A DNA stretch of 27,303 bases from a virus. Its lineage: Duplodnaviria > Heunggongvirae > Uroviricota > Caudoviricetes. The position numbers and the translations under genes are program-made. Positions 24,318 to 26,532 of the stretch are shown here, one piece after another; position 1 is the stretch's first letter; every line of letters starts with the position of its first letter. Where the stretch lies: IMG/VR virus record IMGVR_UViG_2690315994_000016, positions 1 through 27,303 of that record; one strand, written 5' to 3'. Below the pieces are notes generated by a model that made no database searches, had not been told where the DNA came from, and saw only the letters and a program-made list of their open reading frames with translations.

Positions 24318-24734
24318 ATGGAAACCCTATTCAAAGTTTTTGAAAAATTTAGTTCCAGACCACTTTTTTTTATTTTTTTCGGACTCTCACTTTGTGAATT
24401 TTTTCAGAAACAATCTGTTCTGATGAATCCATCAGCAGATAACATCGCGAAATTATTCGCAGCCATGATATTAGTTGTTTTTTTTACTTGGGGATTTGAA
24501 TGGCTAATCTTTAAATTCAATGTAAACCTTGAACCTCATGATCAAGGCGATATTGGACCAACAATTGGAACGGCTGCTTTAGCTGTATACTTAGTTTATG
24601 CCTTTCATTTTCTCAGTGAAAATCCTGAAGCATTAAATTTAAAGTTATTAACTAACTCTGGTTTTATATACAGCACAACTCTATTATTATTCTCATTAGA
24701 AAGTATGAAGCTTAGAAGACTTAAACAAAAGTAA
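24318..24734 (+). CDS. Small integral membrane protein (3-4 TM helices)
   Basis: 138 aa, hydrophobic stretches LFFIFFGLSL, MILVVFFTWGF, AALAVYLVYAF, TTLLLFSL; AT-rich. Confidence 0.5.
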   Translation: METLFKVFEKFSSRPLFFIFFGLSLCEFFQKQSVLMNPSADNIAKLFAAMILVVFFTWGFEWLIFKFNVNLEPHDQGDIGPTIGTAALAVYLVYAFHFLSENPEALNLKLLTNSGFIYSTTLLLFSLESMKLRRLKQK

Positions 24735-26532
24735 ACAACATCATTGCGAGATAAATACAAAAGAGGTATGGCGGTAAATCACCATACCTAAAACATAATA
24801 ATTTTGGTAGTATCGGTGATACATAATCCACACAAATATTGGAGCGATACTGAGACGCTATAACCTGATATCTTTCTCCATAACCAATTCTAAGTTCAGA
24901 TTTAAGATGCGTTTTTTTCTTTCCCTTTTTCTTTTGGGGTTTATCGTGATGTGAATAATATATCTTTGGTTTCAGATTAAATCCTTCAACAACTTCCTTC
25001 CAAGTTTGAACCGCTAATAAAAATTGAATAGAATTGATGTCAATTAATTTTTTAGCTTTTGTAGTAGTTGAGATCCATAAAACCACATCAGTAATTGTCT
25101 CTTCAAATTTTACTACTCCTCTTACTATAGTTTGAATTGTGGTTTTTGACTGTTCAATATTATAAATTAGATCATGCGGTTTATCTGATATCTTTACAGC
25201 AATAATCTCTCCATTTTTATAAAGATCTGCAACTTCAACATTGTAGTCCTTGCCATTATCACGTAAGGATGGTATTTTTTTTAGCTGGCGATCTAGAAGT
25301 ATATAACCTTTCTCATCAGACATCTTTTCATTAAAATAATATTCTCTATATTCTAATTTGTCTTTAGAAGTTCCTTCTGCGATTTGTTTTATTTTTTCAG
25401 CTTGCCATACTTTGAAGTCGTCTTCCTTAAGAGCATCTTTAACCTCAAATTTTATACTGGCTAAAGAAGTAGACAAATACTTCATAAAAGCAGAGTTAAA
25501 TCGACTCCATCCTCCCCTCTTAAGGAAGAAGTGCTCGCTGCCCTCGCTATAAGTAATGCTCAATATTTCTTTTAACGAGGCTGTATGACCACTGTTATTT
25601 TCATTAGTTATCTTAACAAAAACTTTATTGACATCTTTTATGTTGTTATTTTTTATGAATTTCTTTACATCTGCTATTTTTATGTCATTAATTTTATCTG
25701 ATGATTGAAGATACTTTCCACTCCCCTCAACTTTTGTGTGCAATTTAAAAAATGTCAAAGAATTATTAATTACAATAGAGGCACCAAAAGATTGAATCTC
25801 ATCAATAATAACTTTTGCATCATCTGTAATGATCGATTGAAGTAGACAATTATCAAGCTCATCTATCTTTGACTCGTCAGTGATTTTTTCCGATTTAGGA
25901 AATTCGATTTTCTCTTTGGTTGCCAACGAAGAATCAATATCATTGAAAACATCGACTAATGCAGTAGGAGCACCATCCAAACTTAGCTGAATTGAATCAG
26001 AAAAAGTTATATTATTACATCCCCACTTGTCAGTTTCTTTGGCTTTTGTTTTGAGATGCTCGATGGATTCGCCAGGAAAATATGCTCCTTGAACAAACTG
26101 TGAGTATGAGGATGCCTCCTGACTCTTTCCCCCACAAAAGAATCTGCTTTTCTTGAGTAAAATATTTTCATCATTAGCTATACGCATTGCCACATTCAGC
26201 CCAAAGTCTGCTTCAATAAACTTGCTGAGATAAAAATGTGATTTACCAAGACTGATAAGATAGCAATTCTCAGGGTCCTTTTCTTTAAATCCTATTAGCA
26301 GGCCAAAATAGAATATATTATGAGGCTTTTCAATTTCTTCATTGAAGAAATCACTAAAAACATCCCACCACCATACTTCATTTCCTTTTAATTTATCAGA
26401 AAAATAAAATTTGAGTTGATAAGATTGATGTAGAATAGTTTTTTGTTCGACAAGCCCTTCTTTAATGATTTTTTTTGTCAATTCTGGAAGACTCTTATAT
26501 GGCATTCTATATATGTTATAGCTGACTGACAT
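24721..26532 (-). CDS. Large hypothetical protein (603 aa), AT-rich integrase-adjacent cargo
   Basis: Uninterrupted 1.8 kb ORF, ~30% GC, convergent with and 14 bp overlapping the membrane protein gene; no confidently assignable motif. Confidence 0.55.
   Translation of the reverse strand: MSVSYNIYRMPYKSLPELTKKIIKEGLVEQKTILHQSYQLKFYFSDKLKGNEVWWWDVFSDFFNEEIEKPHNIFYFGLLIGFKEKDPENCYLISLGKSHFYLSKFIEADFGLNVAMRIANDENILLKKSRFFCGGKSQEASSYSQFVQGAYFPGESIEHLKTKAKETDKWGCNNITFSDSIQLSLDGAPTALVDVFNDIDSSLATKEKIEFPKSEKITDESKIDELDNCLLQSIITDDAKVIIDEIQSFGASIVINNSLTFFKLHTKVEGSGKYLQSSDKINDIKIADVKKFIKNNNIKDVNKVFVKITNENNSGHTASLKEILSITYSEGSEHFFLKRGGWSRFNSAFMKYLSTSLASIKFEVKDALKEDDFKVWQAEKIKQIAEGTSKDKLEYREYYFNEKMSDEKGYILLDRQLKKIPSLRDNGKDYNVEVADLYKNGEIIAVKISDKPHDLIYNIEQSKTTIQTIVRGVVKFEETITDVVLWISTTTKAKKLIDINSIQFLLAVQTWKEVVEGFNLKPKIYYSHHDKPQKKKGKKKTHLKSELRIGYGERYQVIASQYRSNICVDYVSPILPKLLCFRYGDLPPYLFCIYLAMMLFTFV

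What the first reader, a model, noticed from the sequence alone, without database searches (positions are those of the whole stretch)
24318..26532. Integrase-adjacent AT-rich cargo: 603 aa unknown protein with a small membrane partner
Directly downstream of the P4-type integrase, in the position where such islets usually carry defence genes, are a 138 aa multi-pass membrane protein and a convergent 603 aa protein of ~30% GC. The two genes overlap by 14 bp at their 3' ends. I can assign no catalytic motif to the large protein (no P-loop, no obvious nuclease or HEPN signature). Its size, composition and context make it a candidate uncharacterised anti-phage or abortive-infection protein, possibly acting with the membrane protein.
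Basis: inference. Interest (0 to 1): 0.7.

Follow-up and report, generated by a model that had tools for sequence, protein, structure and literature searches.

The report
Uncharacterised DUF6119 nuclease-like defence candidate
The large AT-rich gene after the integrase belongs to the uncharacterised DUF6119 family, probably encodes a DNA-cutting anti-phage protein that travels with the proven HXS defence operon rather than with the small membrane gene, and carries a one-base frameshift in this copy that gives it a false 63-residue tail.

Summary
Both ORFs exist where stated, in a P4-type-integrase islet at an ssrA att repeat in E. coli. The 603-aa ORF is not the native protein. It belongs to DUF6119/TIGR04141, whose members are 500-560 aa. 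An A7 tract (24912-24918) is A8 in 11 of 12 near-identical genomes, where the protein ends at 543 aa. The deletion fuses it to a 63-aa tail, which is the fossil 3' end of a displaced cargo gene. The 14-bp overlap is a by-product.

The 138-aa gene belongs to the integrase module: about 560 E. coli genomes have it with other cargo, and 5 have DUF6119 without it. DUF6119 instead follows hxsDBCA, a proven anti-phage system, in 10 Enterobacterales species. More distant homologues sit in type III and type I restriction-modification operons.

PADLOC, Pfam nuclease models and the PDB give no match. I found no functional study; DefensePredictor lists the family only as a predicted defence gene. Best reading: a single-protein nuclease defence candidate, untested.

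The parts
22848..22885 (+). Copy of the 3' end of ssrA (tmRNA). It is the att repeat between a P2-like prophage on the left and the integrase islet on the right.
   Evidence: Sequence read. No complete tmRNA or tRNA was found. In O55:H7 genomes the same islet starts at the intact ssrA gene.
23008..24279 (+). P4-type tyrosine integrase of the islet.
   Evidence: Arm-DNA-bind_3, Phage_int_M and Phage_integrase domains. NF007246 at 2.2e-132.
24318..24734 (+). 138-aa hydrophobic protein of unknown function. It belongs to the integrase module and is not a partner of DUF6119.
   Evidence: Found with the integrase and other cargo in about 560 E. coli genomes. The exact sequence is on 477 contigs. Codon changes are 15 synonymous to 4 non-synonymous. 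No Pfam, NCBIfam or PADLOC hit.
24764..24789 (.). Terminator-like hairpin of 10 pairs between the convergent genes. It lies downstream of the native DUF6119 stop and inside the false tail.
24721..24911 (-). The 63-codon read-through tail plus stop codon (residue 541 onward) of the 603-aa ORF. It is the fossil 3' end of a displaced 'response regulator receiver domain' cargo gene and is not part of DUF6119.
   Evidence: The tail aligns with the C-terminus of the L005 6525-8273 protein. The homology block of the integrase module ends at window 24906 and the DUF6119 block starts at 24914. The chance that this frame is open is about 0.013.
24912..24918 (-). A7 homopolymer. It is A8 in most relatives, and the one-base loss removes the native stop, which would otherwise fall at about 24902-24904.
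24913..25371 (-). DUF6119 C-terminal domain (aa 388-540). It is a predicted variant PD-(D/E)xK nuclease fold. The invariant residues E397, E433, D436, K447 and Q461 are encoded within 25150-25344.
25372..26532 (-). DUF6119 N-terminal and middle region (aa 1-387). It has no confident fold relative and is the presumed sensor or DNA-binding part. The start codon at 26532 is supported by family conservation from residue 1.
26601..27278 (-). hxsA, the effector gene of the HXS anti-phage system. It lies immediately upstream of DUF6119 on the same strand. The rest of the operon (hxsC, hxsB, hxsD) lies beyond the window.
   Evidence: TIGR03979 at 2.4e-44. Operon annotation in L001. Function from PMC13128918.

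Best explanation
The gene encodes a member of the DUF6119/TIGR04141 family. This is a roughly 540-aa, single-polypeptide, ATP-independent protein. Its C-terminal 150 residues form a variant PD-(D/E)xK nuclease domain with catalytic candidates E397, E433, D436, K447 and Q461. Its N-terminal 390 residues form a fold with no recognised relatives and are presumed to bind DNA or sense infection.

It most likely acts as a stand-alone anti-phage effector that cuts nucleic acid, probably DNA, once the N-terminal part recognises a phage-associated cue. It is mobile defence-island cargo that repeatedly sits at the 3' end of, or inside, other DNA-directed defence operons. Here that operon is hxsDBCA. Elsewhere it is type III or type I restriction-modification, or a Qat-like system.

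The 138-aa membrane protein belongs to the integrase backbone and is not its partner. The copy in this window has lost one A in a poly-A tract. The loss replaces the last three residues with a 63-residue fossil tail, so its activity is uncertain.

Shown: family membership, the frameshift, the origin of the tail, the gene linkages and the residue conservation. Inferred: the nuclease fold. Inferred only from context: defence function, substrate and trigger.
For: Family and native form.
- PF19614 scores 95 bits against a cut-off of 27, and TIGR04141 scores 76.6 against 35.
- Homologues are 527-550 aa and cover aa 1-540. There are 537 representative clusters, with no domain fusions among the best 150, which are 483-564 aa apart from fragments.
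- A7 versus A8 and the 543-aa native form are shown. The tail is the fossil of another gene.

Nuclease domain.
- Over 123 representatives (median 24% identity to the query), the most conserved residues of the whole protein are E397 (99%), E433 (99%), D436 (100%), K447 (100%) and Q461 (100%).
- In the AF2 model (pLDDT 82.7) they sit on helix 396-408, strands 430-433, 437-439 and 442-448, and helix 452-470. This is the canonical order of core elements.
- All of these vanish when only aa 1-387 are searched.
- The top hit uses an E-D-SxK site (PMC9086364). This parallels D436 followed by [A/F/S]445-V-K447.

Context.
- hxsD-B-C-A lies directly upstream on the same strand in 10 species loci. These span two DUF6119 clades that are only 43% identical, with gaps of 15-70 nt.
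- HXS is a proven anti-phage system.
- Mod-DUF6119-Res with overlapping stop and start codons occurs in three phyla. HsdMSR-DUF6119, typeISP-like-Vsr-DUF6119 and QueC/TatD-DUF6119 also occur.
- A Pectobacterium copy lies near a TerB / BrxC-like ATPase / DEAD-helicase gene trio, which I recognise from memory as Shango-like. A Pseudomonas copy lies next to a Schlafen/AlbA_2 protein.
- DefensePredictor gives family members log-odds of 10-14 as 'Predicted novel defense gene'.
Against: - No experiment on any family member was found.
- There is no hit in PADLOC v2.
- No Pfam nuclease family matches the C-terminal domain, even at E=10. No PDB sequence relative was found.
- The canonical acidic residue of the (D/E)xK motif is A, F or S.
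- Most of the 49 loci show no defence neighbour that I could name, and immediate neighbours include housekeeping genes.
- About 80% of E. coli HXS operons lack DUF6119, and HXS works as four genes. The hxs linkage may therefore reflect co-mobilisation only.
- The window allele is frameshifted at its C-terminus.
Confidence: 0.55

Rival explanations
1. A two-gene system. The large protein acts together with the convergent 138-aa membrane protein, for example as a membrane-anchored abortive-infection pair.
For: The genes are adjacent and convergent in this window, and both are AT-rich. The 138-aa gene is under purifying selection.
Against: The 138-aa gene follows the same integrase with unrelated cargo in about 560 E. 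coli genomes. DUF6119 plus hxs occurs without it in 5 genomes. Only 3 of 49 species loci have both, always with the same integrase. The 3' overlap comes from a frameshift.
Confidence: 0.03
2. DUF6119 is an optional fifth component of the HXS system, or a functionally coupled second layer. It would be a cytoplasmic nuclease that destroys DNA which escapes the periplasmic HxsA block, or that is triggered when HXS is bypassed.
For: It is the gene directly 3' of hxsA on the same strand in 10 species loci. In three of them the gap is only 15-23 nt, which looks operonic. The adjacency holds across two DUF6119 clades that are 43% identical, while HxsB and HxsC stay 71-82% identical. HXS fails against T4 and P1, which leaves room for a complementary layer.
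Against: HXS protects as a four-gene operon, and more than 99.8% of systems are described as four genes. Only about 29 of 155 E. coli genomes with HXS carry DUF6119, with the homology break exactly between the two. Thirty-nine of the 49 DUF6119 loci have no hxs. In the window a promoter-like site precedes DUF6119.
Confidence: 0.15
3. It is not a defence gene. It would be a selfish or maintenance function of mobile islands, such as an addiction-type nuclease or a homing or recombination factor, and it hitch-hikes in variable regions. Alternatively it supplies a nuclease subunit to the adjacent restriction enzymes.
For: Its distribution is sporadic. Integrases, resolvases and transposases are among the neighbours. 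It is inserted between mod and res with overlapping codons. No defence phenotype has been published.
Against: No partner antitoxin-like gene is conserved. It is virtually absent from plasmids and phages, where addiction and homing genes abound. It shows strong full-length purifying conservation and a constant architecture. An independent machine-learning method predicts defence.
Confidence: 0.15
4. In this particular genome the gene is decaying. The frameshifted 603-aa product may be non-functional or misfolded, so the locus contributes nothing here, whatever the family does.
For: The A7 allele replaces the native end with 63 hydrophobic, Cys-rich residues derived from another gene's remnant. 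PGAP annotates inconsistent forms of the gene. IS-disrupted copies exist.
Against: Residues 1-540, including every conserved position, are intact, and only the last 3 native residues are lost. The A7 allele persists on about 30 contigs, including a Klebsiella copy. Slippage in the A-run could restore the frame in some transcripts or descendants.
Confidence: 0.35

Closest known systems
Shedu (SduA, DUF4263)
   Same: A single-gene defence protein that combines a variable N-terminal sensing region with a C-terminal PD-(D/E)xK nuclease. It needs no NTPase, is found in defence islands and is sporadically distributed. This comparison rests on my knowledge of the family.
   Different: The query matches no Pfam nuclease family and no PADLOC model. 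The motif is E...ExxD...xVK...Q rather than the canonical D...ExK. The N-terminal 390 residues have a constant architecture across the family and no known fold.
HamA of Hachiman (DUF1837)
   Different: HamA works with the HamB helicase, whereas DUF6119 has no conserved helicase partner. There is no sequence-level relationship.
CdiA-CT EC869/TA271 DNase toxin domain (PDB 4G6U)
   Different: It is a secreted interbacterial toxin domain with an immunity protein. Sequence identity is only 9% and the biological context is unrelated. No immunity-like gene accompanies DUF6119.
HXS system (hxsDBCA)
   Same: It is the immediate co-oriented neighbour here and in 10 species loci. It is a proven broad anti-phage system that blocks DNA entry.
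   Different: DUF6119 is not one of the four required genes. Most HXS operons lack it, and most DUF6119 genes lack HXS.
Restriction-embedded guard genes such as PrrC and RloC in type I R-M loci (analogy recalled from memory)
   Same: An extra effector gene embedded in a restriction-modification operon. DUF6119 sits between mod and res of type III systems and after hsdR of type I systems.
   Different: PrrC and RloC are ATPase-regulated anticodon RNases. DUF6119 has no NTPase domain and carries a DNase-type fold. No guard relationship has been tested.
Upx and type IV/IIS restriction endonucleases (Upx defence role recalled from memory)
   Different: There is no PADLOC Upx hit. The size and domain make-up differ, and no recognisable DNA-recognition or modified-base-reader domain was found.

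Membership tests
DUF6119 / TIGR04141 'sporadically distributed protein' | Score above the curated cut-offs of PF19614 and TIGR04141 | tested here: met
   PF19614 scores 95.1 bits against a cut-off of 27. TIGR04141 scores 76.6 bits against a cut-off of 35. RefSeq annotates the identical locus as 'DUF6119 family protein'.
DUF6119 / TIGR04141 'sporadically distributed protein' | Single-module architecture of about 500-560 aa aligned end to end | tested here: met
   Residues 1-540 align over 98-100% with homologues of 527-550 aa and with representatives of 483-564 aa. The extra 63 residues of the window ORF are not family sequence.
DUF6119 / TIGR04141 'sporadically distributed protein' | Family-invariant residues E397, E433, D436, K447 and Q461 are present | tested here: met
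   All are present in the window protein and are 99-100% conserved in 123 representatives.
PD-(D/E)xK nuclease superfamily | Alpha-beta-beta-beta-alpha-beta core fold | tested here: inconclusive
PD-(D/E)xK nuclease superfamily | Canonical D...(D/E)xK catalytic motif | tested here: not met
   D436 and K447 are invariant, but the position two residues before K is A, F or S. An acidic residue may instead be supplied by E433, E397 or D/E460, as in variant sites such as CdiA-CT. The site is a variant, not the canonical motif.
PD-(D/E)xK nuclease superfamily | Metal-dependent phosphodiesterase activity | not testable with these tools
   This requires purified protein and nuclease assays.
HXS anti-phage system | Being one of the four genes (hxsA-D) required for and constituting the system | tested here: not met
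   DUF6119 matches none of the Hxs models. The system is defined and functional as four genes. About 126 of 155 E. coli genomes with HXS lack DUF6119.
HXS anti-phage system | Conserved co-oriented adjacency to the operon | tested here: met
   Ten of 49 species loci have this adjacency, across two DUF6119 clades, with gaps of 15-70 nt. This shows linkage, not membership.
   About 560 genomes have the 138-aa gene without DUF6119, and 5 have DUF6119 without it. Only 3 of 49 species loci have both.
Any defence system catalogued in PADLOC-DB v2.0.0 | Match to a system protein model | tested here: not met
   Neither the 603-aa nor the 138-aa protein has a hit at E<=0.1. As a positive control, the neighbouring dCTP deaminase scores 2.4e-146.
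Experimentally validated defence gene | Published phage-protection phenotype for a family member | tested here: not met
   No paper was found. DefensePredictor lists the family only among predictions, and the names are absent from its table of tested systems (of which I read part 1 of 3).

The most novel reading that the evidence does not exclude
DUF6119 is a plug-in 'second-line' nuclease that attaches to mechanistically unrelated DNA-directed defences: the periplasmic DNA-entry blocker HXS, type I and type III restriction-modification, and Qat-like systems. It would fire when those first-line systems are bypassed or inhibited. Its large, fold-orphan N-terminal region would sense either incoming DNA that got through or phage anti-defence activity. 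That would make it a new family of guard-type effectors and would give the newly described HXS system a cytoplasmic back-up.
Probability: 0.15. Interest if true: 0.7.

Novelty: new variant of a known kind. Interest (0 to 1): 0.45.

Why it matters
If the intact allele protects against phage, DUF6119 would become a new single-gene defence family. It has about 540 clusters across at least eight phyla. Its nuclease site is non-canonical and its 390-residue N-terminal region resembles no solved structure.

Its recurrent placement behind the HXS operon and inside restriction-modification operons makes layered or guard-type immunity directly testable in E. coli with natural alleles.

The analysis also corrects annotation. 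The 594- and 603-aa RefSeq forms are frameshift fusions to a fossil gene end. The 543-aa O55:H7 and O157:H7 copies that PGAP flags as 'frameshifted' are in fact the native form.

Tried and rejected
- tRNA/tmRNA and Rfam scans of the window found nothing. Only a 3' fragment of ssrA is present.
- PADLOC gave no hit for either gene.
- Pfam scans of 20 C-terminal domains at E<=10 found no nuclease family.
- Profile searches of PDB sequences, with the full-length and the C-terminal profile, gave only noise.
- Foldseek against the PDB with the full model gave nothing at E<=0.001.
- Literature searches for DUF6119, TIGR04141, PF19614 and RefSeq accessions found no functional paper.
- I pooled 123 immediate neighbours from 39 loci into Pfam and PADLOC. 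The result was a diffuse list that includes housekeeping genes, so I make no quantitative enrichment claim.
- I considered that the 63-aa tail might be a genuine alternative C-terminus, because its frame is unexpectedly open (p about 0.013). I rejected this because the tail is homologous to the end of another gene, crosses a terminator hairpin, and is absent from all other family members.
- I considered that the frameshift might be a sequencing error. That is unlikely, because the A7 allele recurs on about 30 contigs from different sources.
- Phage and plasmid collections gave almost no homologues.
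Full report
**Setting.** The window is an E. coli ssrA region.
- Positions 1 to about 22842 are a P2-like prophage. It carries replication gene A, a Dam methylase, CII, CI and an integrase.
- Between its integrase and the att site it carries an anti-phage dCTP deaminase at 20860-22617 (PADLOC 2.4e-146, NF041025).
- A copy of the ssrA 3' end at about 22848-22885 separates the prophage from a second element.
- That element contains a P4-type integrase (23008-24279), the 138-aa ORF (24318-24734, +), the 603-aa ORF (24721-26532, -) and hxsA (26601-27278, -).
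- The same islet sits directly at the intact ssrA gene in O55:H7 and early O157:H7 genomes, at 99.9-100% identity. There hxsC, hxsB and hxsD follow hxsA.

**Observation.** Both ORFs, their roughly 32% GC and their 14-bp 3' overlap are real. The 603-aa reading frame is not the native gene.
- Aligning the window with O55:H7 USDA5905 shows a single difference in 4.36 kb. The T7 run (A7 on the coding strand, 24912-24918) is T8 in the relative.
- Eleven of the 12 near-identical complete genomes have the longer run. With it the ORF is 543 aa.
- The same holds for the 98%-identical ETEC copy (543 aa, ending ...KKKGKKKNVS*) and the 96%-identical NCTC9040 copy (544 aa).
- The whole family is 500-560 aa. 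The Pfam and TIGRFAM models do not extend into the tail.
- The 63 extra residues are homologous to the C-terminus of a different gene. That gene is the 583-aa 'response regulator receiver domain' protein, which follows the same integrase module in many other E. coli genomes (...LKSQLRTGYAERYQAIASQYSSRIGVDYVSMMLP*).
- The tail is therefore the fossil 3' end of a displaced cargo gene. This explains why its frame is open, against a chance probability of about 0.013.
- The tail also runs through a terminator-like hairpin at 24764-24789.
- The A7 allele is not a one-off error. The 603- and 594-aa forms are on about 30 contigs, including a Klebsiella variicola copy, against more than 500 contigs with 543/544-aa forms.
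- PGAP labels the A8 copies 'frameshifted'. I infer that this is because it compares them with the longer form. The A8 copies are the intact ones.

**The small gene is not the partner.**
- A megablast of 24280-26600 against 5,426 complete E. coli genomes splits cleanly at the poly-A tract. About 560 genomes match only 24280-24906, which is the 138-aa gene plus the fossil. Five match only from 24914 onward, which is DUF6119. Twenty-four match both.
- In the first group the cargo is a receiver-domain protein plus an ATP-binding protein.
- In the second group DUF6119 and hxs lie behind a different set of genes, a three-component ABC system, with no 138-aa gene.
- Among 49 species-level loci, the 138-aa gene accompanies DUF6119 only in the three that carry the same integrase.
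- The 138-aa ORF does look like a real gene, with 15 synonymous against 4 non-synonymous codon changes. It belongs to the integrase backbone.

**What travels with DUF6119.**
- In 10 of the 49 loci, all Enterobacterales, hxsD-hxsB-hxsC-hxsA lies immediately upstream on the same strand.
- These loci contain two DUF6119 clades that are only about 43% identical. Their HxsB and HxsC proteins remain 71-82% identical.
- In the second clade the gap after hxsA is only 15-23 nt.
- HXS was shown in 2026 to be a four-gene anti-phage system that blocks DNA entry (PMC13128918).
- The link is not obligatory. Only about 29 of 155 E. coli genomes with HXS have DUF6119, and the homology break falls exactly between the two genes. 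Thirty-nine of the 49 DUF6119 loci have no hxs.
- In distant homologues (25-31% identity) the gene is embedded in other defence operons:
  - type III Mod-DUF6119-Res with overlapping stop and start codons, in three phyla (L041, L047, L054; PADLOC MTase_III 2.4e-269);
  - HsdM-HsdS-HsdR-DUF6119 in Legionella (L035), and HsdR-DUF6119 in Thermobacillus (L037);
  - a typeISP-like methylase, then Vsr, then DUF6119 (L051);
  - QueC-like, then TatD, then DUF6119 (L040).
- Other copies lie near a TerB / BrxC-like ATPase / DEAD-helicase gene trio that I recognise from memory as Shango-like, and next to a Schlafen/AlbA_2 protein.
- Otherwise there is no conserved neighbour. A pooled scan of 123 neighbours was heterogeneous.
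- The family is almost absent from phage and plasmid records.

**The protein.**
- It is a clear member of DUF6119/TIGR04141.
- An exhaustive profile search finds 537 clusters at 50% identity. The best 150 all have the same architecture and no fusions.
- Over 123 representatives, with median 24% identity to the query, the most conserved residues of the entire protein are E397, E433, D436, K447 and Q461 (99-100%). All five lie in the last 150 residues.
- The conserved N-terminal positions are mostly Gly, Trp, Pro and Phe, which points to structural roles.
- The AlphaFold2 model (pLDDT 82.7, pTM 0.74) places the five residues on an alpha(396-408)-beta-beta-beta(442-448)-alpha(452-470)-beta(482-489) core.
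- These hits disappear when only residues 1-387 are modelled and searched, so they map to the C-terminal domain.
- The top hit uses a Glu / Asp / Ser-x-Lys variant site (PMC9086364). This is comparable to D436 followed by [A/F/S]445-V-K447, with E433, E397 or D/E460 as alternative acidic ligands.

**Mechanism proposed.**
- The protein is a stand-alone, NTP-independent nuclease. Its large N-terminal region recognises DNA or an infection cue, and its C-terminal variant PD-(D/E)xK site cuts nucleic acid.
- It is carried as modular defence cargo, often appended to DNA-directed systems.
- Shown here: family membership, native length, the frameshift and origin of the tail, the linkage patterns and the residue conservation.
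- Inferred: the nuclease fold and catalytic residues.
- Inferred from context only: anti-phage function, substrate and trigger.
- I put 0.55 on this overall reading.
- Rivals:
  - a functional coupling to HXS (0.15);
  - a non-defence selfish or accessory role (0.15);
  - not exclusive of the others, loss of function of this particular allele (0.35).

**Comparison with what is known.**
- It works most like Shedu, HamA or Upx-type single nuclease effectors. By context it resembles restriction-embedded guards such as PrrC and RloC.
- It is a member of none of these. PADLOC v2 and Pfam show no relationship.
- It is not part of the defined HXS system.
- No functional study exists.
- The only prior statement I found is computational. 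DefensePredictor (Science 2026, PMC13092281) lists TIGR04141/DUF6119 proteins as 'Predicted novel defense gene', with log-odds of 10-14. The family names do not occur in its table of tested systems, of which I read part 1 of 3.

**Verdict.**
- The gene itself is already catalogued and annotated, and it has been flagged by machine learning. The new points are the predicted nuclease site, the HXS and restriction-operon linkage, and the explanation of the frameshift and fossil tail.
- Interest is moderate (0.45). I rate it a new variant of a known kind.

Noticed in passing
window 20860-22617 (-): An anti-phage dCTP deaminase (P-loop kinase-like N-terminus plus a dCMP/cytidine deaminase domain). 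It lies between the P2-like prophage integrase (19833-20846) and the ssrA att repeat. PADLOC dCTPase 2.4e-146 and NCBIfam NF041025 8.5e-126. It is a known system in a known P2 cargo position.
   Followed up: partly
window 11074-13314: A second AT-rich cargo spot inside the P2-like prophage. It holds a DUF4145 protein (11074-11772, -; weak PD-T7-4 match at 2.4e-6) and a ShosT/PsyrT-like protein (12173-12754, +; 1.3e-8) that overlaps a 189-aa ORF (12745-13314, +) with no family hit. This may be a toxin-antitoxin-type defence pair.
   Followed up: partly
window 24721-24911 versus L005 6525-6629: The sequence downstream of the 138-aa gene keeps the last 30 or so codons of a 583-aa 'response regulator receiver domain' gene. 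In about 560 E. coli genomes that gene, together with an ATP-binding protein, is the cargo of the same integrase module. It is a fossil of cargo exchange at a fixed junction (about 24906-24912). A response-regulator protein also appears among DefensePredictor's high-scoring predictions; I did not check whether it is the same family.
   Followed up: partly
window 24912-24918; L001 11061-12692: RefSeq/PGAP annotates the intact 543-aa A8 copies in O55:H7 and O157:H7 as a 'frameshifted' pseudogene, and the A7 fusion (594 aa in DEC5E) as a normal protein. This is the reverse of what the family alignment indicates. A 603-aa copy also occurs in Klebsiella variicola.
   Followed up: yes
window 26601-27278 (-) and beyond the window end: hxsA is the effector of the HXS anti-phage system published in 2026. 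The window cuts the operon, and hxsC, hxsB and hxsD lie beyond 27303. In DEC5E an IS3-family element has replaced hxsC, hxsB and hxsD.
   Followed up: partly
L041 7512-14432; L047 1722-8741; L054 7492-14429: A three-gene cassette Mod (N6_N4_Mtase) - DUF6119 - Res (ResIII helicase) with 8-10 nt stop/start overlaps. It is shared by a Saccharicenans, a Paceibacterota and a Zixiibacteriota genome. I did not check whether these Res proteins lack their own endonuclease motif.
   Followed up: partly
L001 16835-20988; L004 2298-5724: Islets that carry DUF6119 and hxs also carry 'ABC-three component' systems (a DUF3732 protein or AAA ATPase with a middle component). The ssrA islet is therefore a stack of defence-like modules.
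   Followed up: no
window 22801-22830 (+): The strongest sigma-70-like match in the region (TTGAAA-18-TATAAT, 11 of 12). It lies just upstream of the ssrA 3' repeat, inside AT-rich sequence at the right end of the prophage. Its function is unknown.
   Followed up: no
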